IMG/VR virus record: IMGVR_UViG_3300010149_000001
Coordinates: 17,677-81,676 of that record
DNA length: 64,000 nt
Reading direction: 5' to 3' (one strand)
DNA from: a virus
Below, one piece after another: positions 3-57,000 of this stretch. Below the pieces are notes generated by a model, which worked only from the letters and a program-made list of their open reading frames with translations, searched no databases and was not told the origin of the DNA. The position numbers and the translations under genes were made by a program. Every line of letters starts with the position of its first letter. Position 1 is the stretch's first letter.

Positions 3-2477
3 TGGGAGATTCGTGTTGACCTGCCATCTCAGATTCGTGAGGTTCGTGAGTTCTTCTATCCACATTATTGTTCAGATGTTTCATGGCCGAATCTGGTCAG
101 ATGGATTGCTGGTTGGGGTGCGGTTATCGAGGTCAATACGGACAAACTGAAATCCACAGCAGAAATCCTCCGCCCCGTTCACATCAAAAAATCAAATCAC
201 GATTTGTCAGAGTTCAAACTGAACGCTCTGTATTATGACATTGAAACAGCAGATTCTCTGGACATGGAGGGAACTCCAGAACCGATTGTCTCCATAGCCA
301 TCTATGACGAGGCCACAGACACTCACGAATGTGCAACAATACGCCACACCAGCGAGCGTCAAGTCAGACGATTCATGTCCAGCCAGAAGGCTCTGGAGTC
401 CGTTGTTGAGCATAAGAATCCAATCCCACCGCTGGTGGCTGAAAGAGTCCATGTGCATAACATGGAGGGCGAGGATGATATTGAGCGAGAGGCGGCACTT
501 CTTCATTGGTTCAAGCGAATGCTGGACAAGTATGACCCAGATGTCATCGCTGGTCAAAACATTCTGGGCTATGACAACCCGTATGTCAAGAACCGATGTC
601 GCAACCAACGCAGAGCGATGGAGAGGGAACACAGAGGTGCAGTTCCTGTCTGGGCAACCTATCCCAAACTGTTCACCAAACACAAAGGGCTGATGCCCTC
701 GTTTGATACCAAGAAGGTCTATGCAGAGCAGGTTCAAGGTGCGGCGGCTACAACAGGGTCAGCCAGCCTTGCATGGATGGGAGAGTCCACTCTGGGCTAT
801 GGCAAAGTGCCACGCACATCAATCAAAGAGATGATGAAAAACGACCCGATGATGTTGGCTGTGTATAACATCTGGGACAATGTGGTGGCGGCTCGCTGTA
901 TGCAGAAACTTGACCTGCTGGCGTTTTATCAGATGAAGGTCGGATTCCATAACTCAACAATCCATGCGGCTCACAGCAACATGATGCTGGTCGAGGACAT
1001 GATGGGACACTTGCTCTGGGACAGGGATTCTGTCATGCCATCGCTTGATGTTGCTCGCTCTCAATTGAAGTCTGGAGGAATCAGTCAAGGTGGATTCGTC
1101 ATGGGCGCACCATCTGGCATCTGGAGGAACGCATTTGAATTGGATAACTCAATGGAATACCCATCTGTGATTATCACATGCAACGCTGACATCAGCACCA
1201 AAGTCAACCCAGAGGATTATCCAGACGGTTATCCATTCCCTGTGGCAACAACACCGCTGGGAACGGTCTATCGCCAAGACATTGAGGGATTGATGCCCAA
1301 TATCCTCAGAGGTCTGGCTGGCGAGCGTGAGCGTGTCAGAGGCGAGATGCGGGTTGCATTTGAATCTGGGAATGATGAACTTGGCAAGCGACTCGACCAA
1401 CGACAGCGGGTCATGAAAGAGAACATGAACTCGTGGTATGGAGTTCTTGGTTCTGGTGCGACAGAAAAAACTGCGGGCAGACCGTTCAGAATGGTTGATG
1501 GAGATATTGGCTCTGATATAACAGACATCGCCAGACGACACAACGATTGGAACAAGCACCTCATCAATCGCATCACACTTCTATTCAGCAAGGATGGCAT
1601 CTATCCAGACCCAGAAGCATTGAGACATCAAAACATTGATAGACTCCCATCTCATGGCGAAGGTGATGCGGAGGTCGTGCGACTCCGTTTTGAGACCATC
1701 TATCAAGACACAGATTCATGCAAGACAGCCATCGTCAATCACGATGAGGCTGAGGCCAAAATCAGACCGTTCACTCCAGAGGACATCATGTCATGTGCAA
1801 ACATCATGACCAAAATCCTCAACGATTCCTATGATGAGTTTGTTCAGACAACGATTGGAGTTCCTAAGAATGAGTTTTTCAAAGTGAAGCCAGATGCCTA
1901 TTATGCCAGATACTTTCAATGGGGAGTGAAGAAGCGATACGCCTATGTTGACTTCGATGGCAAACATGGTTATCGTGGTGTTGAGATGCGACGGTCATCC
2001 TCACCGCAGGTTGTCAAGTCATGTCAAGAGCGATTGTTCAATGCAATTTTGAATGGCGATTCCAGAACTGAACTCAACGGACTCATCAGAGATATTGAAT
2101 CCGATATGTTGGATGAGACCTTGACTTCTGCTGGAGACTTTGGACAACCGATGGGAATGAAGAAAGAAGGAACTCAAGCATACAAGGCGGCGATGTGGTC
2201 AAACAAAAATCTGGGAACTCAGTTTAATCTGGGAGACAAACCCGTCATGTATCTGTCATCTAAGACCAAGAACGGACTCCCAGCCAACAGGCTGGTGGCA
2301 ATCGAATGGGGCGACTCTCCAGAGGACTACGGCATAGTCGTGGACAGAGCCAAAGCGATTGAGAAGTTCTTTGTTGACTCCAATTCATTCACTCAGATTC
2401 TGGGTGCTGTGGGAACATCATGGAAATCCGCCAGAGCAGGGATGAGTCAGTCCAGCATGAGCGAGTGGTTTCGATGA
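3..2477 (+). CDS. polB: Family B DNA polymerase (5' end lies outside the window)
   Basis: Frame is open from position 3. Exo I YYDIET, Exo II NILGYDNPY, Exo III YNIWD, motif A DNSMEYPS, motif B KENMNSWYG, motif C YQDTDS, and KKRY. Confidence 0.96.
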   Translation, partial: WEIRVDLPSQIREVREFFYPHYCSDVSWPNLVRWIAGWGAVIEVNTDKLKSTAEILRPVHIKKSNHDLSEFKLNALYYDIETADSLDMEGTPEPIVSIAIYDEATDTHECATIRHTSERQVRRFMSSQKALESVVEHKNPIPPLVAERVHVHNMEGEDDIEREAALLHWFKRMLDKYDPDVIAGQNILGYDNPYVKNRCRNQRRAMEREHRGAVPVWATYPKLFTKHKGLMPSFDTKKVYAEQVQGAAATTGSASLAWMGESTLGYGKVPRTSIKEMMKNDPMMLAVYNIWDNVVAARCMQKLDLLAFYQMKVGFHNSTIHAAHSNMMLVEDMMGHLLWDRDSVMPSLDVARSQLKSGGISQGGFVMGAPSGIWRNAFELDNSMEYPSVIITCNADISTKVNPEDYPDGYPFPVATTPLGTVYRQDIEGLMPNILRGLAGERERVRGEMRVAFESGNDELGKRLDQRQRVMKENMNSWYGVLGSGATEKTAGRPFRMVDGDIGSDITDIARRHNDWNKHLINRITLLFSKDGIYPDPEALRHQNIDRLPSHGEGDAEVVRLRFETIYQDTDSCKTAIVNHDEAEAKIRPFTPEDIMSCANIMTKILNDSYDEFVQTTIGVPKNEFFKVKPDAYYARYFQWGVKKRYAYVDFDGKHGYRGVEMRRSSSPQVVKSCQERLFNAILNGDSRTELNGLIRDIESDMLDETLTSAGDFGQPMGMKKEGTQAYKAAMWSNKNLGTQFNLGDKPVMYLSSKTKNGLPANRLVAIEWGDSPEDYGIVVDRAKAIEKFFVDSNSFTQILGAVGTSWKSARAGMSQSSMSEWFR

Positions 2478-3044: not shown

Positions 3045-4214
3045 ATGGGACTAATTGAAAACATGAGAGATGCCGTTGAGTTCAACGGTGGCAAACTGAC
3101 AGAAGAACAATACTTGGAAAAAGTGCTGGAGATAATCGAAAGCGAAGGTGGCTCAACCTCCATCGCTTCTCTGAAATCCAACGCATTCAATTCTGCTCGT
3201 ATGGAGAAGGCTGGAATCACCAGACTGACCATCGGCAAAGACAAGTTCGTTTGGACAACCGCTATGGTTGAAGGAATGCTTTCTGGCAACGCTACACCAA
3301 TGCCAACAACAACAATGGTCAACAATGTCAATGCACCAGAAGCAACAGACGATGGCTACTTCTATGGAATCCGCCGACGCTCTCCAGATGAATACCCAGA
3401 ACACATGCAAGCATACATCATCCCTCGTGGTTCACTCAAGTTTGTTGAATCAGAAAAGGGCGAGATGCGCTTGCTTGCTGTCGCATTCAAGAACGGCTGG
3501 TATGTTTCCAGCAACGGACCCAAAGGCTGTGGCAAGACAATGGCTATGATGATGTTCGCTTCTGAGGTCGGTATTCCATTCATGCGAATTAACTGCTCAG
3601 AAGGTTTCACAGAAGAGTCCTTCATTGGCTACAACACACTCATTGACGGTGAAATCACTTGGATTGACGGAGTTCTCCCAGAGAGCCTCCGATACGGTGC
3701 TTTCCTTTGCTTCGATGAGTTCCGCCACGCTCGCCCAGAGATTATGACCGCATGGAATCCTGTTGGCGACTCTGGCACTCTTGTATTGCCTCAGAACAAC
3801 AACGAGGTCATCAAGGCTCACGCTGACTTCCGCACCTTCGCAACCATGAACCCAATCGAAGGCTACTCTGGTGGACAAGATGTCAACCAAGCAACATCTG
3901 ACCGATTCGCTATGTCTCTTGAGGCTACATACCTCCCAGCAGACTCTGAAATCCGTGTCATCTGTGAACAGTCTGGTGTTTCAAACCCAGCCATCGCTCG
4001 TCAATTCGTGCAATTGGCAAACGACCTTCGCAACCTCAAGGCTCAACATGACCTTGAGTCTGACACATCAACCCGTATGCTCATCAGCATGATGCAAGCA
4101 ACAACAGATTTGTCTGTTGCTGAAATCGTTGAGTATATCATGATTGGTCGCTATCAACCACACGAAGCCGAACTCATCAAGACAACGGCTCGTGCAAGGT
4201 TGTCTGACTACTGA
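3045..4214 (+). CDS. MoxR-family AAA+ ATPase (CbbQ/NirQ/CobS-like)
   Basis: Walker A GPKGCGKT, Walker B CFDEF, FRTFATMNP..GY.G and DRF motifs; AGGAG SD upstream. Confidence 0.9.
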   Translation: MGLIENMRDAVEFNGGKLTEEQYLEKVLEIIESEGGSTSIASLKSNAFNSARMEKAGITRLTIGKDKFVWTTAMVEGMLSGNATPMPTTTMVNNVNAPEATDDGYFYGIRRRSPDEYPEHMQAYIIPRGSLKFVESEKGEMRLLAVAFKNGWYVSSNGPKGCGKTMAMMMFASEVGIPFMRINCSEGFTEESFIGYNTLIDGEITWIDGVLPESLRYGAFLCFDEFRHARPEIMTAWNPVGDSGTLVLPQNNNEVIKAHADFRTFATMNPIEGYSGGQDVNQATSDRFAMSLEATYLPADSEIRVICEQSGVSNPAIARQFVQLANDLRNLKAQHDLESDTSTRMLISMMQATTDLSVAEIVEYIMIGRYQPHEAELIKTTARARLSDY

Positions 4215-4240
4215 ATACAATTCTCTGGTCTCGTGCAAAC

Positions 4241-4290
4241 GGGCTGGGGGGTATTGCACGAGGCTATCTGTGTCTCAAACCCCCAGCCCA
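4241..4290 (+). terminator. GC-rich inverted repeat after the AAA gene (terminator-like or 3' stabilising hairpin)
   Basis: GGGCTGGGGG...CCCCCAGCCC, a perfect 10-bp stem. Confidence 0.5.
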
Positions 4291-4328
4291 CCTTGCATTT
4301 GATAAGGGTGGGTTCAGAACCCCAGAGC

Positions 4329-38974: not shown

Positions 38975-39301
38975 TCAGTTAATTTTGTTGCCATCCATGT
39001 CAAAGACATCACGGCCACCTTCGCCACCACGCATTCGGATAACGGTGAATCGGTCATCGCCAGAGATTGAAACCCAAGCGAATGTGCGAGGTTCTGTGAT
39101 TAAGTATTCTGAACCTGTGCATCCTGTGATAACTTCTTTGACTTGAGTTTCAACGACTGTCATCTCCATGCTGATTGCTTTGGATTCCTCGATGCAGATA
39201 AACATCTCAGCGGTGCTTGCATCCGTAGCGGTGTTGTGAAAATACACTTCATGGATTTTGTCAGTCTCAGTCTCTTTGACTTGGTATGGGTATTGGCTCA
39301 T
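38975..39301 (-). CDS. Hypothetical protein (early-type cassette)
   Basis: Full promoter element at 39324-39362 on the minus strand. Confidence 0.7.
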   Translation of the reverse strand: MSQYPYQVKETETDKIHEVYFHNTATDASTAEMFICIEESKAISMEMTVVETQVKEVITGCTGSEYLITEPRTFAWVSISGDDRFTVIRMRGGEGGRDVFDMDGNKIN

Positions 39302-39393
39302 ATCCCTGCGTGTGCATACCACTATATCAATGCGTCGGCCATATCAATGGTTTTGTTCTTAAAATGAGCAAGTTTTGGTTCGCCAGAAAGGGT

Positions 39394-39490
39394 GGGACAT
39401 GGTGGTTATGGCGGCATATACAAACCGACTGACAGCCCACCATGCCCCGATGTTGGATGCCCAATCCAACAAGGAGGTTTAGCCGTCAGC
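39394..39490 (-). ncRNA. Candidate ~100-nt pseudoknotted small RNA
   Basis: TGATAAACC box 29 nt upstream; crossing 9-bp and 12-bp helices; 8-bp hairpin; G-U pairs on the minus strand only. Confidence 0.55.
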
Positions 39491-39568
39491 AATTATCAGA
39501 CTCCAGAGTCGGTTTATCAGCGTATTCACGCCAATACCGTTAAAACCCCTCACGGATGACCAAGACCC

Positions 39569-39949
39569 ATGAGCGACCTCTTGAAACTCACCAAAACCAA
39601 ACTGCTGAAACTTGTTGAAGAAGCAGGTCTGACCGCAGATGCAGAAGCAACCAAAGCAGATTTGGTCGCACTCCTTGAAGCAGTTCCAGAAGAAGCACCA
39701 GCAGAAGTGGTTGAAGAAGTGGTTGCAGAGACTCCAAAAAAAGCAAAGAAGCCTTCTGGTTCTAAGGTCGCACTCGACATGGAACTTCAAGGTGGCGAGT
39801 TCGTTAAGGCGGCTTATCTGGCTATTCTAAAGCGTGAAGCAGACCCAATGGGTCTTGCGAACTACACAGGCGCATTGGCTATGGGTGGCATGACCAAAGA
39901 AGGTCTTGTCGAGGACTTGAAAGCCTCTGGCGAATACGCCGCACTTTGA
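39569..39949 (+). CDS. HeH/Rho-N-like plus DUF4214-like domain protein
   Basis: LTKTKLLKL...TKADLVALL; FVKAAYLAILKREADPMGLANY...SGEY. Confidence 0.7.
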   Translation: MSDLLKLTKTKLLKLVEEAGLTADAEATKADLVALLEAVPEEAPAEVVEEVVAETPKKAKKPSGSKVALDMELQGGEFVKAAYLAILKREADPMGLANYTGALAMGGMTKEGLVEDLKASGEYAAL

Positions 39950-39951
39950 GT

Positions 39952-40341
39952 TCACTCAAACTTGCACATGAATGAACTGCCACAGTCGGTTTGATTCCAA
40001 TCCCAGCGGTATGCTGACATGATTATTGCCATAGCCTCAAAGACTCTTTCACGGTCAGACTGAGTTCCTTCTCCACTCCACATGACGAATCCTTCATATT
40101 TCCAAGCATCTTCTGTGAACCAATCTTCTCCACGATTTGCTTGACGGATTTTGAAAGTGCAAGGTGAATCACCGTTGGTGAATATAATTTCACAGTCCTC
40201 ACGGATAGCAATCTGTTGTTCTGTTATGTCCATCTTGACCCATTCACCAGATGTGAATGTGTTTTCTGGTCGGTTTGGAATAGTGAAAACTCCAATCGCT
40301 TCTGTGGTTGTCATTGTCTGTTGCATGTTGGTTCTGCTCAT
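39952..40341 (-). CDS. Hypothetical protein (early-type cassette)
   Basis: Full promoter element at 40362-40402 on the minus strand. Confidence 0.7.
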   Translation of the reverse strand: MSRTNMQQTMTTTEAIGVFTIPNRPENTFTSGEWVKMDITEQQIAIREDCEIIFTNGDSPCTFKIRQANRGEDWFTEDAWKYEGFVMWSGEGTQSDRERVFEAMAIIMSAYRWDWNQTDCGSSFMCKFE

Positions 40342-40495
40342 ACCCCTGCGTGGGAGTTCCCCCTTATAATATCTTCTCAATCTCAATGGTTTTGTTCCTA
40401 ATTCCCACCTTATTGAAGTCAATACACACCATATTGGTCAGAATAATTGAGATTCCTCCGAAGCCTTGAAGTCCTATCGTGGTTCACACCCCAAC

Positions 40496-51278: not shown

Positions 51279-51317
51279 ATCCCAACCGTGATAAGCCACG
51301 AGGGTTGACCTCAAGGC

Positions 51318-53150
51318 ATGGATGAGAACTCTCTGGAGAGGTTTCACCGACTCATCAGAGGCGGCTCAGATGGTGTCGTTGTCAATATGCCTCAAGGCAT
51401 TCTGGATGAGATTGAGAGGATGGGTTCAGACCCACGCAGACCCAAGACAGCAATCGCTCGCTGGGCATCTCAGACATGGTTGGAACATCAGCACGAAGCA
51501 ATCAGAAACGGCGAGAGCGTTGCTCTGGATGCGAGCCATGTTGAGAAGGAACTGATGGAACGCCCACAGCACTATCCAACGACTTGGGGCTTGGACATGA
51601 TTCCATTCCCAGATGACATTGGAGGTTGGGCTTTAGACAAGACGAATACGCTCTGCTACACATCTCTGAATACACCACGCCCATTTGACCCACATCTGTT
51701 CGATATGTCTAAGGCCATATCTGGTTCGCCAGATGGCAAATTGGGATTCGGTTATCATTATCAACACAAGTCTGGGATGGGAGAATTGTATGACATCACG
51801 ACCAGAAGAGGTGGCGGCGCAAGAGGTGGATTCGCATTCACGACGGGTCCGACTGAGGGCGCATATTCGTCAGCAGTTCTGCCACAGCCACAGTTCAATC
51901 TGGGTCGTCTGGGCTTCTCTAATGGCGGCTGGAATCCAGAAGGTCTCCAATGGACAAACAGACCCAAGAGAATGAAACTCAGCGGTCTGAGGAACGGCTG
52001 GGCGCATCGTGTGATATTCGCTCGCTCTCGTCAAGTCATGTTCAGAAACTTGTATGGCGACATGGATATTGTTGAAGCAGTTCCAAAAGCACCGACTGTT
52101 GTTCTGAATGGACTGACAGATGTTCACGGAGTTATTGGGGTCAATATGAAGAAAACTTTCAACGCACCGACTGAACTTGAAATAACAATCAACAATCCAA
52201 ACGGCAGAAGGACAGGAATGTTCAATCGAGGCGACACGATTCAGATATTTGCCGCACCAAGAACTTGGGCGAGTCCTCCTTTGGTTTTCACAGGATTCGT
52301 GTCAGAGATTGAAGAGTCAACCGATGAAATCAATCTGTTCTGTTTGGATTCTCTGGGGCTTCTGGGGCTTGAAATTATCAAGACCGACCAGAATTATTTC
52401 AAGGCAGATGCTCTGACTATCGCCAAAGACTTGATTGCCAATTCGGTCTATGCACCTCCGATTGGCAGAATCAAAAACGAGTCCAGAATAACTCTGCCTC
52501 AAGGTCTCAAGTTCAAAGGACAGAACCGCTTATCTGCGATTCAGACGATACTGAACATCATCAACAGCACACCAAACAAGTTCCAGATTTATGCAACATC
52601 AGACGGCTACATCACAGTCAGAAAACTGAAAGAGGTTTATGACACGAATACAACCCCCTATACGGCTGGAACTGTCCCAAGAACGGCTGACCCACAGGAC
52701 TTCTATCCAACGGCCATACAGAGGCTCTCTGGGGATAAAACAGGGTTCAATGTCGTCGTGGTTGAGAACAGCGATTTGAACATCAGCATCACCGTTCCAA
52801 AAGTCGGCTCTGACAGATTCCCTGCGATTCCTGTTGAGCGTGTTGTCCAAGACGGGTCAATCGTTGATGAGCAACAGGCCAGAATGGTTGGTGAATACTT
52901 CTTGAATACTCAAGGCTCAGACAACACCAGATGGATTGTTGAAGGAATCCCAGAACGGTTTGACATCGAGGTTGGAGATGTGATGGAGTTTGCATCGTCA
53001 GAGGGCAACCTGTCTGGTCGCCAACGCATCTTTGACATCTCGTGGGAATTGGGCGTTGGAACAAGCAACATGACGATGAATGTTGGCCGTCAAGCACCCG
53101 ATGTCATATCCACTCTCCAATACGCTCTGGGAATCTCGCAAGGTCGCTGA
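51318..53150 (+). CDS. Baseplate hub/Tal-like protein
   Basis: C-terminal half fits a hub fold (ITINNPNG, VFTGFV, IEVGDV); position in the tail module. Confidence 0.7.
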   Translation: MDENSLERFHRLIRGGSDGVVVNMPQGILDEIERMGSDPRRPKTAIARWASQTWLEHQHEAIRNGESVALDASHVEKELMERPQHYPTTWGLDMIPFPDDIGGWALDKTNTLCYTSLNTPRPFDPHLFDMSKAISGSPDGKLGFGYHYQHKSGMGELYDITTRRGGGARGGFAFTTGPTEGAYSSAVLPQPQFNLGRLGFSNGGWNPEGLQWTNRPKRMKLSGLRNGWAHRVIFARSRQVMFRNLYGDMDIVEAVPKAPTVVLNGLTDVHGVIGVNMKKTFNAPTELEITINNPNGRRTGMFNRGDTIQIFAAPRTWASPPLVFTGFVSEIEESTDEINLFCLDSLGLLGLEIIKTDQNYFKADALTIAKDLIANSVYAPPIGRIKNESRITLPQGLKFKGQNRLSAIQTILNIINSTPNKFQIYATSDGYITVRKLKEVYDTNTTPYTAGTVPRTADPQDFYPTAIQRLSGDKTGFNVVVVENSDLNISITVPKVGSDRFPAIPVERVVQDGSIVDEQQARMVGEYFLNTQGSDNTRWIVEGIPERFDIEVGDVMEFASSEGNLSGRQRIFDISWELGVGTSNMTMNVGRQAPDVISTLQYALGISQGR

Positions 53151-53151
53151 T

Positions 53152-53190
53152 TTAGGAACATAAGCATTGAGATGCCGATGTATTGATATA
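53152..53190 (+). promoter_or_regulatory. Early-type conserved promoter element driving the large ncRNA
   Basis: TTAGGAACATAAGCATTGAGAT...TATTGATATA; the first 19 nt are identical to 51000-51018. Confidence 0.75.
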
Positions 53191-54009: not shown

Positions 54010-57000
54010 ATGACAGCACCCGCTATCACTCCAGCAACGGGTGTGCCAAAGTCAGCGGCTGACGCAGTTCCACCAATTGGCTCTCGTGGTTTGCCGTTCA
54101 CATGGGCTTTGGCAGATTGGCCGAGCGACACAGCACCCGTCGCTCTCCAATTCGCTTTGAATGAAATCCCCATTCAGAAAACGACAGACAGATTGGCTCT
54201 CTTCGATGAAACCATCTGGGCTGAAAAACAGATGAATCCAATTGGCGTGAGTGGAACATCAATTCAGTTTGAGCCAATTGCACCAACCGCATCATACATT
54301 GAAAGCACTTATGCAATCAATCAATTGGCAAATGTCAACCCAAGAACATTCCCACCAAGAGTCGCTGGTGCTGGAATCAATCAATCTCCACCATCTCTGA
54401 ATCACGGCAGAGGTTCTCTGGTATTTTCCTCCACTATCAACGGAGTATCGAAGTCAATATATGACCCAGCAAAAGTCAGAGGCTCTGCTCAATATCAAGG
54501 ATTATCATTCTCAAACTGCGGCAGATTTGTTGACCATCCAGAAGAGAACTACGCATCTGCTCGCCCAGCAAACCACTCGTGGGTCAAGGCGCAAGAAGGA
54601 TTCCAACCACATCTGCCAGCGTCATCGCTCGACTTTGGAACAGGAACAGTTCTCAAGGGCAACAACATCGAAACCGACCACGCCATTGGTGGTGTCGGAG
54701 ATGGTCAGCCCAATTGTTTGGACACCCAATATGTGGGCTTTCAGACGATAACATCAACCGTTGTCAAATCGGTCTCAGCGATACCGTCAAATGGACTTGG
54801 CAGTATCTATGGAGACTCACATAATTCAGTTCACTACACCAACCTCATTTGCTCAAATCTGGCGAATGATTTGGGTTATCCTGTGGAGATGGCGAATGGA
54901 GGAATACACCCCGTTCAATCCTATGAATACACTCGTCAGACTCATTGGTGCATCAATCTGGGAACTGCTCAGACAGCGTTGCGAGATGGCGTTGAAGCGT
55001 CATCTCCAGACGGCTTGACAAAAGCCAGCGGCTGGGTTGCACCTGCTGGGTTTGGGGTTGGCGCATACGACACCAATTCAGCATCTGCTGAGATGTCTCA
55101 AGCAAACCCAGCGGCTGGACTGTCGAGCAAGACTGAGACCATTCAACAGATAGTTCTCAACGACACATTCAGCGACGGTGCTTCTGGGCAAGTCCCAACC
55201 CCATCATCAACGCTGGGAGACATCACTCTGGGTGCAAGTGTTGTCCACGACACGGCTGGTCTGATTGGCTTTGAAGGGACAATCACAGCATCTGCTTTCT
55301 ATGCACCCACTAAGGACACAGACCCAACAGGAGTTCAAGGTGCAATCGCTCACGCATCTGGCAAAGGATATGCTGGATTGAATGTTCAAGTTCACTCTGG
55401 ATTCGGCATCAGAAGGAACAAAGGAGGCATGGGTCGTCTGGGCAACCCATACAGATACGGTTCTGATGGAACGCCTGTCAGAGTGATGACAGATGCCATG
55501 AAAACACACGCTATGAGAGGCGATGGCACAGAAGGAACTGCTGATGCAAACTGCAATCAGACTTGGTTCAGAACAGGGACAGTCGGAGTGAATAATTCAG
55601 CCGTTCCATCATCAGACCCAGATGGAATCCCAGCCATCGGAGACCCGCAACCCAAGCCAGCACCAGATTCCGTATTCCAACATTTCATGATTGGCGAAAC
55701 TCCAGAAAATGTCGGTGGAACTGATGGAAGAAAAATTATCGGGGCTAATATGCCAGCAAGCGGCATGTGCAACGAGATTCATAATTCCTATTCAACAGGC
55801 AAATGGATTGCCAATGGAGTGCCGACAAAAGTGCAAATTATACCTGTCATAACAGGGTATGAAGATATTCCTGTTTCAGTCGGTGCGGCCAAACTTGGTT
55901 TGTTCCCATCGGCACAGATTCAGATGTTCAGAAAGCCTCTGGTGGATTATCACATATTGGTCTCAATAACCGACAGCCCAGAGACCAGAGCAAACACAGA
56001 CCCAACAAATCCGTTTGATGGAGACCCAACCCAGAGGAATGTGCCAGACCCTCAGAGATTGAGTGCGAATGCTGACTATTCCAAGCAGGGCTGTGTCATC
56101 TATCATGGCATATTCAGAATTGACCCACAGACTCTGGAACAGATATTCATTGACATGAATGAACAGTCTGGAATGGTGTTTAACATGGATGCTGACGGCG
56201 GTGCGGTCTGCCCATCATCTGTGATTCCTCGCCACGACTATGGCAAGGTTGGAACTGTGCAACAGGGATGGGGATTGCATCAAGCAACACCATTCAGACC
56301 TATTGCTCTGACAGACAAATTGGGCAAAGTTCCTCGTCTGGGCGGTGCTATCGAGGGCGGTGGATTTTATCAGCGTGGAGGCATCTCTCACCTCTGGGAT
56401 GGGTGTGAATATGGTGGTGAGATATTCGTCGGTGCTGACTGTATCAAACCACACGAACTCCAGACATCAGCGGCCAATGGAACAAACGAGTTTGGTCAGC
56501 CAACATTCGGCATATTTGGCAACGGACAAATCTGGGCTGATGGCACAGGTGCGCCCAAGAGACCAACAGGAATGGAACTTTTCGTCTGGAGATATTCACC
56601 ACAGGATGACCCATTATACCCATCTGTTTCTGATGGCTACATGGCTATGAACAGCCTCACAGATGGTGCGAACAAGCATGGCATCCCATACACGCCAGCG
56701 ATGGACAACATCACTCCACAGCCAGCGTCATGGCATAAGCCCAGAACAGGCAATCTGGAGGGCGCAGTTTGGGCAATCCACGATTGGGTTATGCCACAGG
56801 TCGAACTGATGCGCTATCTGGGCAGAGAAGAAAAGACAGAGGCTGAACATTATGAAGTATCTGGCTCTCACACTTATCATCCAAGTCTGCATTGTTCCTC
56901 GCTCAGAGCGATGGATGACGGGCGATTCATGATGGCGGCTGTTCATGTTGACTACATCAAGACAGAAGCAGACTATCCAACGAATGAAATTAGTTATCCT

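What the first reader, a model, noticed from the sequence alone, without database searches (positions are those of the whole stretch)
39394..39519. Compact pseudoknotted ~100-nt RNA on the minus strand
Seen: TGATAAACC box at 39519, with +29 falling on GCTGACGGC (39490). P1 GCUGACGGC/GCUGUCAGU (9 bp) crosses P2 GGGGCAUGGUGG/CCACCAUGUCCC (12 bp). An 8-bp hairpin (39451-71) lies in loop 1 and a small CGGU/GCCG hairpin in loop 3. The P1/P2/P4-like order recalls HDV-like ribozymes, but the P3/L3 core is absent. Inference: a nuclease-resistant RNA, decoy or novel ribozyme-like fold.
Basis: partly seen in the sequence, partly recalled or inferred. Interest (0 to 1): 0.7.

Follow-up and report, generated by a model that had tools for sequence, protein, structure and literature searches.

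The report
Conserved pseudoknot RNA of marine viruses
A roughly 100-base stretch between two genes of an uncultured marine virus, probably one that infects archaea, encodes a small knotted RNA that is kept in shape across diverged relatives and belongs to no described RNA family.

Summary
All four helices exist at the stated coordinates on the minus strand, and P1 crosses P2.

The fold alone is not significant across the 64-kb window: crossing helix pairs of -40 or better occur in 20 of 20 whole-window shuffles. Relatives settle it. I found the same architecture in four diverged lineages (five distinct sequences):
- P1 and P2 abut with no spacer.
- All 104 helix pairs are canonical, although helix nucleotides are only 38-57% identical.
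- Both-sided changes occur at 8 of 9 P1 positions and 9 of 13 P2 positions.

A TATA-like box lies exactly 29 nt before the first P1 base in every lineage. In this virus that spacing marks the start of leaderless genes.

The two small hairpins are optional insertions. Loop 1 always carries CCUCC, mostly ACCUCCU, which I recall as matching the 3' end of 16S rRNA.

The constant neighbour is a divergently transcribed SAP-plus-DUF4214 gene, not the downstream gene. There is no Rfam match, and the HDV-like helix order is not met.

Function is untested. My best guess is a trans-acting RNA that mimics the anti-Shine-Dalgarno tail. The scan had noted this same stretch from another window of the same genome, but not on other DNA.

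The parts
39511..39519 (-). TATA-like promoter box TGATAAACC of the RNA
   Evidence: There are three exact copies in the window. The two on the plus strand (26381, 34761) and the variant TGATAAGCC (51289) are followed by an ORF-opening ATG at +30, +29 and +29. A 9-nt box sits at the same 29-nt distance before P1 in L006, L010, L121 and L122. The box is unchanged in L006.
39491..39510 (-). 20-nt spacer between the box and the inferred start
   Evidence: It holds 3 of the 8 substitutions against L006. It is unrelated in sequence between lineages.
39385..39490 (-). The RNA. The 5' end is inferred at G39490 (plus or minus 1-2 nt). The 3' end is not determined; it lies somewhere after 39394 in the tail ACCCUUUCU, or at the T4 run near 39362-39366.
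   Evidence: Promoter rule, fold and conservation. No transcript data were available.
39482..39490 (-). P1, 5' strand (GCUGACGGC)
   Evidence: It pairs with 39428-39436. G39483-C39435 becomes A-U in L006. Across lineages, 8 of 9 positions show both-sided changes.
39473..39477 (-). CCUCC in loop 1 (ACCUCCU with its flanks); resembles an anti-Shine-Dalgarno sequence
   Evidence: CCUCC is present in loop 1 of all 5 sequences. Its predicted unpaired probability within the pseudoknot frame is 0.85-1.00.
39451..39471 (-). 8-bp hairpin in loop 1 (optional module)
   Evidence: G39470-C39452 becomes G.U in L006. A hairpin of different sequence sits at this place in L121 and L122, and none in L010.
39437..39448 (-). 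P2, 5' strand (GGGGCAUGGUGG)
   Evidence: It pairs with 39394-39405. Across lineages, 9 of 13 positions show both-sided changes.
39428..39436 (-). P1, 3' strand (GCUGUCAGU), directly abutting P2
   Evidence: The gap between the P2 5' strand and the P1 3' strand is zero in all five sequences.
39412..39427 (-). 4-bp hairpin in loop 3 (optional module)
   Evidence: Hairpins of different sequence occur at this place in L121 (CCAG/CUGG) and L122 (GGGU/GCCC), and none in L010.
39394..39405 (-). P2, 3' strand (CCACCAUGUCCC)
39569..39949 (+). Divergently transcribed partner gene p126: SAP/HeH domain, disordered acidic-basic linker, DUF4214. Its own box GTTAAAACC lies at 39539-39547, with the ATG at +30.
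   Evidence: Pfam DUF4214. SAP-domain and phycobilisome-linker matches in the PDB. Model with two helical domains. It lies next to the RNA in all lineages that carry the RNA.
39321..39363 (-). Separate promoter repeat ('class E') that serves the downstream minus-strand gene 38975-39301. It is not part of the RNA.
   Evidence: Repeat family. ATG at +29.

Best explanation
What it is: a small virus-encoded non-coding RNA with its own promoter.

- Start. A TATA-like box (39519-39511, minus strand) places the start at G39490, which is the first base of helix P1.
- Fold. The transcript forms an H-type pseudoknot. P1 (9 bp) and P2 (12 bp) abut and can stack coaxially. One optional hairpin sits in each loop.
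- Loop 1. It presents a single-stranded CCUCC/ACCUCCU, which matches the 3' tail of 16S rRNA (recalled).
- Proposed mechanism (inferred). The knot makes a stable scaffold with a buried 5' end. The exposed loop acts in trans as a mimic of the anti-Shine-Dalgarno tail. It would pair with GGAGG-type ribosome-binding sites and shift translation away from such mRNAs. Most genes of this virus appear leaderless, or use GGUGA(U)-type sites, and would escape.
- Partner. The RNA and the divergent SAP-domain gene p126 form one inherited module, and p126 may bind the RNA.

My odds by step:
- real, selected pseudoknot on this strand: about 0.9
- independent transcript starting at P1: about 0.7
- anti-Shine-Dalgarno mimicry as the function: about 0.25-0.3
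For: Shown:
- The helices exist.
- Against the 95%-identical relative L006, 5 of 8 substitutions fall in helices. They make 2 both-sided compensations and 1 G-C to G.U, with none broken. Random placement gives at least 2 compensations with none broken at 6e-5.
- Read on the plus strand, 2 of those changes break pairs, and 4 pairs are already mismatched in the window.
- The same architecture is found in L010/L009, L121 and L122/L148, with 104 of 104 pairs canonical at 38-57% helix identity.
- Local shuffles reach the real score in 0-1 of 2000 for each of the 5 sequences.
- 29 p126-upstream regions without the RNA score -21.8 to -35.0. The three new regions with the RNA (L121, L122, L148) score -48.1 and -53.1.
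- The box lies 29 nt before P1 in all lineages.
- The same spacing leads to ORF-opening ATGs for 3 boxes of this type and 8 'class E' boxes.
- CCUCC is in loop 1 of all 5 sequences and is predicted unpaired.
- L122 carries two tandem copies that resemble the 16S tail.
- Shine-Dalgarno pairing is used by a subset of the virus's genes: 17 of 74 have a 5-mer of AGGAGGTGAT at -18..-4, against 2 of 74 in each control. These are mostly GGTGA/GTGAT words and rarely GGAGG.

Inferred:
- The archaeal host, from the box-to-ATG spacing and from PolB, RFC-like, XPF/ERCC4-HhH and Prim-Pol genes.
Against: - There are no transcript data of any kind. The start, the end and even expression are inferred.
- The tail has only short U runs (CUUUCU), so read-through into the next gene is possible.
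- CCUCC is only 5 nt long. It could be a tertiary contact, a protein site, or a competitor of the C-rich P2 3' strand for the G-rich P2 5' strand.
- No extended target for loop 1 exists in the viral genome: nothing within 2 mismatches of its 13-nt complement except the locus's own opposite strand.
- AGGAGG in this virus is not placed before start codons.
- A one-to-one RNA decoy would have to be very abundant to affect translation.
- The host's use of Shine-Dalgarno sites was not examined.
- The RNA is restricted to one sub-clade, so it is accessory.
Confidence: 0.3

Rival explanations
1. The RNA is the RNA subunit or ligand of a ribonucleoprotein with the divergently transcribed SAP-domain protein p126. 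It could act as a tether or assembly cofactor in the virion module, loosely like the packaging RNA of phi29.
For: - The RNA and p126 share a back-to-back promoter region. They stayed together while the module changed place and orientation between lineages.
- p126 has an N-terminal SAP domain. SAP domains of Tho1, Hcc-1 and ERI1 match it in the PDB search. That these domains bind nucleic acid is recalled.
- The module lies among head and tail genes.
Against: - p126 homologues are far more widespread than the RNA. They occur in 46 of 79 related records, but only 3 of 32 upstream regions examined carry the RNA. So p126 works without it.
- Shared promoters alone can explain the co-inheritance.
- No binding test was possible.
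Confidence: 0.2
2. The RNA is a cis-acting 5' leader. Transcription from the box reads through into the next gene on the same strand, and the knot controls that gene's stability or translation.
For: - The tail lacks a strong oligo-U terminator.
- In L010, L121 and L122 the next start codon (an HNH endonuclease) is only about 40-50 nt after P2.
- In the window the next gene starts 93 nt after P2.
Against: - The downstream gene differs between lineages: HNH endonuclease in three, an unrelated 108-aa gene in the window and L006.
- Each downstream gene has its own box at the leaderless distance.
- The window's own HNH gene (36783) does without the RNA.
- A more distant homologue of the 108-aa gene has no such element upstream.
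Confidence: 0.15
3. The RNA is a stable structural decoy whose point is the fold itself, for example blocking a 5'-to-3' exoribonuclease or titrating a host RNA-binding or defence protein. The CCUCC loop would be incidental.
For: - The 5' end is buried in P1 from the first base in every lineage.
- The compact 21-bp stacked knot is strongly conserved.
Against: - The fold shows no similarity to known exonuclease-resistant RNAs.
- This reading does not explain the conserved loop motif.
- It is untested.
Confidence: 0.1
4. The RNA is a self-cleaving ribozyme, HDV-like or of a new class, that processes a longer minus-strand transcript at the base of P1.
For: - P1 starts with a G.U pair in the window, L006 and L122.
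- A minus-strand transcript from the promoter at about 40400 could in principle reach the element.
Against: - The helix order differs from HDV-like ribozymes.
- In L010 and L121 the first pair is G-C.
- No Rfam ribozyme family matches at E up to 10.
- A promoter box at the right distance makes cleavage unnecessary.
Confidence: 0.03
5. There is no RNA function. The inverted repeats are a DNA-level feature (a protein site or recombination signal) or a chance structure.
For: - Whole-window shuffles reach similar crossing-helix energies.
- No expression data exist.
Against: - G.U pairs and G-C to G.U changes fit only the minus-strand reading.
- Covariation holds across four lineages with 104 of 104 canonical pairs.
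- Controls without the RNA score far lower.
Confidence: 0.04

Closest known systems
H-type pseudoknot riboswitch aptamers (SAM-II, SAM-V, preQ1-II, fluoride); names and features recalled
   Same: Two crossing helices that stack, a size of several tens of nucleotides, and occurrence in marine microbes and their viruses.
   Different: - No match to any Rfam model at E up to 10.
- It does not sit before a constant gene.
- It has long loops with optional hairpins.
- It has its own promoter, with the start at the first helix base.
HDV-like self-cleaving ribozymes; topology recalled
   Same: A knot whose P1 begins at the RNA's first base, in some lineages with a G.U pair, and an outer P2 that encloses a small hairpin.
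   Different: - The hairpin and the P2 5' strand are in the opposite order.
- There is no P3/L3/P1.1 core.
- The hairpins are dispensable, since L010 has none.
- No Rfam match.
Ribosome-targeting small RNAs of archaea, such as the valine tRNA fragment (PMC11009984; I read only the passages found)
   Same: A small non-coding RNA proposed to interfere with translation initiation around the anti-Shine-Dalgarno region.
   Different: That RNA binds the small subunit itself. Here the RNA would imitate the 16S tail and bind mRNAs. This RNA is virus-encoded, knotted and untested.
phi29 packaging RNA (recalled)
   Same: A small structured RNA encoded by a tailed virus among virion genes.
   Different: No sequence or structure similarity, no complementary loops seen for ring formation, and no evidence of a packaging role.
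Other candidate structured RNAs of this same virus (notes e1-6135116, e1-6135119, e1-6135121)
   Same: Promoter boxes of the virus that point into folded sequence instead of an ATG (one search shows boxes without an ATG at 53183 and 31959).
   Different: There is no shared sequence. The self-comparison found only the promoter repeat. This RNA is the smallest and is a simple knot.

Membership tests
HDV-like ribozyme | Helix order P1, P2, P3 hairpin, P1', P4 hairpin, P2' (nested double pseudoknot; recalled) | tested here: not met
   The order here is P1, hairpin, P2, P1', hairpin, P2'. L010 has neither hairpin.
HDV-like ribozyme | Match to a curated covariance model | tested here: not met
   Rfam 15 gave 0 matches at gathering score across the window. 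At E up to 10 the window locus gave only a CRISPR-repeat chance hit. The L010 locus gave four weak unrelated hits.
HDV-like ribozyme | Self-cleavage 5' of P1 | not testable with these tools
   This needs an in-vitro transcription and cleavage assay.
Pseudoknot riboswitch (SAM-II/V, preQ1-II, fluoride) | Match to a curated covariance model | tested here: not met
Pseudoknot riboswitch (SAM-II/V, preQ1-II, fluoride) | Sits in the 5' leader of a recurring gene class | tested here: not met
   The downstream gene is an HNH endonuclease in L010, L121 and L122, and an unrelated 108-aa gene in the window and L006. Each has its own box.
Trans-acting small RNA with an anti-Shine-Dalgarno seed | Own promoter and defined 5' end | tested here: inconclusive
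   The box lies 29 nt before P1 in all lineages, and the spacing rule holds on 11 genes. No transcript data exist.
Trans-acting small RNA with an anti-Shine-Dalgarno seed | Conserved, accessible seed | tested here: met
   CCUCC is in loop 1 of 5 of 5 sequences, with unpaired probability 0.85-1.00.
Trans-acting small RNA with an anti-Shine-Dalgarno seed | Identified targets | tested here: inconclusive
   No extended target exists in the virus genome. Host genomes were not examined.
phi29-type packaging RNA | Match to the curated model, or complementary loops for multimer formation | tested here: not met
   No Rfam match. No loop-loop complementarity was noticed; this was not searched systematically.

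The most novel reading that the evidence does not exclude
A virus of marine archaea makes a knotted mimic of the 3' tail of 16S rRNA. The mimic soaks up GGAGG-type ribosome-binding sites. This tilts translation towards the virus's own leaderless or GGUGA-type messages. It would be a new way for a virus to take over translation.
Probability: 0.25. Interest if true: 0.85.

Novelty: new variant of a known kind. Interest (0 to 1): 0.6.

Why it matters
I found no structured non-coding RNA described for these abundant, uncultured marine viruses. Three magrovirus papers contain none of the words non-coding, ncRNA, promoter or TATA. I searched PMC11706807 and PMC10160649 for all four. I searched PMC5434244 for promoter, TATA and RNA only. 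Two further full-text searches found nothing relevant.

What this locus offers:
- An RNA that is small enough to synthesise.
- A fold well supported by covariation.
- A 5' end predicted to the base.
- A conserved loop motif that suggests a testable link to translation initiation.
- A readable promoter grammar for the virus: a box, then 29 nt, then the start.

Tried and rejected
Readings I rejected or could not use:
- Bacterial sigma-70 reading. The scan found CTGATA-17-GATAAT, but its second hexamer is GACATT in L006. The box-to-ATG rule fits the whole genome better.
- An 11-bp helix between the box region (39517-39507) and 39430-39420 gave the best crossing pair in the window scan. Its 5' arm lies upstream of the inferred start and has no counterpart in L010, so I set it aside.
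- Terminator reading: no terminator-like site lies at the locus.
- Coding reading: the window has a stop in all three RNA-strand frames, and L122 in all three opposite frames.
- Duplex predictions between this RNA and the other candidate RNAs or the neighbouring 5' ends had z-scores from -1.79 to 0.07 and were uninformative.

Searches that found little or nothing:
- Covariance model R1 (hairpins plus P2) found nothing in the complete relative G001, although a homologue is there. The model was too specific.
- MAFFT alignments A6 and A7 were structurally wrong, so I counted pairs across lineages with my own scripts. The registers of helices of unequal length are my choice. The 104 of 104 count does not depend on them.
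- With only two rows, the shuffle control of the count of structure pairs is uninformative: 126 of 500.
- Pattern scans of viral contigs returned only the known lineages plus chance hits: 14 of 17, and L040 inside a gene. One search found only the L006 contig.
- Genome contigs gave no p126 relative and 6 hits in bacterial MAGs. That is near my rough chance estimate, and I did not inspect them.
- The metagenome scan with the 108-aa family found only the L006 contig and one distant homologue without the RNA.
- No RNA holder was listed by the look-up of sequencing runs.
- The 'phages' collection had no DNA match and only weak capsid matches.
- The capsid protein search returned no taxon names, so 'magrovirus-like' is an inference.

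Rows I dropped:
- In some searches I examined the 32 full-length p126 matches.
- I left out 16 partial or second matches: L123, L138-L147 and L164-L168.

Limits:
- Supplementary files of the magrovirus papers were not seen. They may list features that I call undescribed.

Full report
**Setting.** The window is bases 17677-81676 of an 81.7-kb virus record with direct terminal repeats. The virus has a tailed-virus virion module:
- HK97-type capsid, terminase and tape measure;
- family-B DNA polymerase, an RFC-like clamp-loader ATPase, an XPF/ERCC4-HhH nuclease, a Prim-Pol-like protein, and a MoxR-type ATPase with a vWA protein.

This gene set resembles what the magrovirus paper lists for viruses of Marine Group II archaea (PMC5434244, passages). 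I did no phylogeny, and the capsid search returned no names. The host assignment is therefore an inference.

**Promoter grammar.** A note of this scan (e1-6135109) suggested TATA-like boxes at a fixed distance before leaderless genes. I tested that.
- I took the 16 places in the genome within one mismatch of ATTGATATAG. In 8 of them an ATG that opens an ORF of 80-384 aa lies 29-31 nt after the first T.
- The boxes TGATAAACC (26381, 34761) and TGATAAGCC (51289) have such an ATG at +30, +29 and +29.
- The partner gene p126 has GTTAAAACC with its ATG at +30.
- Leaderless messages are the majority in some archaea: 72% of protein-coding transcripts in Haloferax volcanii (PMC4983044, passages).
- This changed my first reading, which had been bacterial -35/-10 promoters.

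**The observation.** On the minus strand:
- TGATAAACC lies at 39519-39511, and +29 falls on G39490.
- P1 is 39490-82 with 39436-28, P2 is 39448-37 with 39405-394, the 8-bp hairpin is 39471-64 with 39458-51, and the 4-bp hairpin is 39427-24 with 39415-12. All are as described, and P1 crosses P2.
- The nested minimum-energy fold is unremarkable: -38.6 kcal/mol with z -1.95 on the minus strand, and -34.9 with z -1.22 on the plus strand.
- A scan of the whole window for crossing helices ranks the locus second on its strand.
- Twenty shuffles of the window all contain crossing pairs of -40 or better, and one reaches -45.6. Energy alone would not have justified the finding.
- Local shuffles of the about 106-nt stretch reach the real value in 1 of 2000.

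**Close relative.** L006 is a 5.5-kb contig that is 93% identical over the intergenic region.
- It differs from the window at 8 substitutions and 2 indels in the 141 nt around the element.
- Three substitutions fall in the 20-nt spacer between box and start.
- The other five are all in helices. G39483-C39435 becomes A-U in P1. G39437-C39405 becomes U.G in P2. G39470-C39452 becomes G.U in the hairpin.
- Placing 8 substitutions at random gives two or more both-sided compensations with no broken pair in 6e-5 of 200,000 trials.
- On the plus-strand reading, two of these changes break pairs, and four pairs are already mismatched. The selected strand is the minus strand.

**Distant relatives.**
- A covariance model built from the window and L006 found nothing in the complete relative G001.
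- While comparing the p126 promoter in L010, I saw the same TGATAAACC box on the strand opposite to the p126 homologue. Exactly 29 nt later come an 8-bp P1 and a 13-bp P2 in the same crossing order with no spacer between them. The loops are shorter and there are no hairpins. L009 is identical there.
- I then collected 80 related contigs through the capsid protein and searched them for p126 homologues. These were present in 25 of 30 and in 21 of 49 records.
- I ran my crossing-helix finder on the 330 nt upstream of the 32 full-length matches.
- Three regions showed the knot with zero spacer: L121 at -48.1, and L122 and its identical copy L148 at -53.1. The other 29 scored between -21.8 and -35.0 and serve as negative controls.

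**Covariation.** The family has five distinct sequences from four lineages.
- All 104 helix pairs are canonical, while helix nucleotides are only 38-57% identical between lineages.
- With helices anchored at the P1/P2 junction, 8 of 9 P1 positions and 9 of 13 P2 positions show changes on both sides.
- The window against L010 alone gives 3-4 both-sided changes in P1 and 3 in P2, with none broken.
- Local shuffles reach the real score in 0 or 1 of 2000 for every member.

**What is conserved, and what is not**.
- Constant features:
  - a 9-nt box 29 nt before P1 (TGATAAACC, TGATAAAGG or TTAATAAGG);
  - a pyrimidine at -1 and GC at +1 and +2;
  - no spacer between the P2 5' strand and the P1 3' strand;
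  - three G-C pairs at the outer end of P2;
  - a pyrimidine-rich tail with a short U run (CUUUC or CUUC);
  - CCUCC in loop 1 (ACCUCCU in four of five sequences; L122 has two tandem copies that resemble the 16S tail).
- Variable features: the loop-1 hairpin (three different sequences, absent in L010) and the loop-3 hairpin (three different sequences, absent in L010).
- Within the knot frame, CCUCC is predicted unpaired at 0.85-1.00.

**Context.**
- In L010, L121 and L122 the RNA is followed after about 40-50 nt by an HNH endonuclease gene that has its own box.
- In the window and L006 the module is inverted and lies about 2 kb further on. There it is followed by a 'class E' promoter and an unrelated 108-aa gene.
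- That 108-aa gene belongs to a small family with an invariant GCTGSEYLITE motif. A distant member of the family has no RNA upstream.
- The only constant neighbour is p126. It has a SAP/HeH domain, a disordered acidic-basic linker, and a DUF4214 domain related to phycobilisome linker repeats.
- In L125 and L126 the RNA is missing, and a 'class E' cassette follows the remnant of the box.

**Function.**
- Nothing here shows what the RNA does.
- A cis-leader role is weakened by the change of downstream gene.
- A ribozyme role is weakened by the promoter at the right distance, the wrong helix order and the lack of any Rfam match.
- A DNA-level role is weakened by the G.U evidence.
- The conserved exposed CCUCC points to pairing with GGAGG.
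- A subset of the virus's genes does use Shine-Dalgarno pairing (17 of 74, against 2 of 74 in controls), mostly with GGTGA/GTGAT words rather than GGAGG. Many other genes look leaderless.
- I therefore put forward anti-Shine-Dalgarno mimicry as the leading idea at about 0.25-0.3. A ribonucleoprotein with p126 comes next at about 0.2.
- Arguments against the mimic idea:
  - there is no extended target in the viral genome;
  - AGGAGG is not placed before start codons in this virus;
  - a decoy would need to be very abundant;
  - the host's ribosome-binding sites are unknown.

**Novelty.**
- No Rfam family matches.
- The three magrovirus papers I searched mention no non-coding RNA or promoter.
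- Two wider full-text searches found nothing relevant.
- As a kind of thing, a virus-encoded small structured RNA with an H-type knot, it has precedents. As a family, and in this group of viruses, it appears to be new.

Noticed in passing
window 53183 (+), 31959 (-), 12700 (-): Copies of the 'class E' promoter box with no ATG at +29..31. The first two point into stretches that other notes of this scan call structured RNAs.
   Followed up: no
window 39507-39517 with 39420-39430 (minus strand): An 11-bp helix between the box region and the P1 3' strand region. It competes with P1 for 3 nt and gives the best crossing pair at the locus. It could form only in transcripts that start upstream of the box.
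   Followed up: partly
window 39515-39536: A 9-bp palindrome (GGUAUUGGC/GCGUGAAUACGC region) between the two back-to-back boxes. The stretch 39505-39569 has 1 change in 65 nt against L006, and GTATYGG recurs in L010, L121 and L125. It may be a regulator site.
   Followed up: no
window 4189-4293 (both strands), 55031-55114 (+), 51289-51398 (-): Other top-scoring crossing-helix loci in the window scan. The one at 4189-4293 scores better than this finding.
   Followed up: no
window 38975-39301 (-): A 108-aa gene of a small family with an invariant V-I-x-GCTGSEYLITE-x-R block and no Pfam or PHROG match.
   Followed up: partly
window 39569-39949 (+) and relatives: p126 homologues (SAP domain plus DUF4214, which resembles a phycobilisome linker repeat) occur in 46 of 79 related virus records. 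This looks like a widespread gene of the group with unknown function.
   Followed up: partly
window 39952-40400 (-) and 38975-39363 (-): Two minus-strand cassettes share the promoter, the sequence CACGCAGGG-N-TATGAGC and the first two codons. The stop of the 40341-39952 gene lies 2 nt from the stop of p126.
   Followed up: no
whole genome (G000): Words of AGGAGGTGAT at -18..-4 occur in 17 of 74 plus-strand ORFs, against 2 of 74 in each control. They are mostly GTGAT, GGTGA and AGGTG. The virus therefore mixes leaderless genes and genes led by a ribosome-binding site.
   Followed up: partly
L125 and L126, upstream of the p126 homologue: This lineage keeps GTATCGG and a degenerate box (TCGATAAGG), but a 'class E' promoter and a gene follow in place of the RNA. 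It looks like loss or replacement of the RNA.
   Followed up: no
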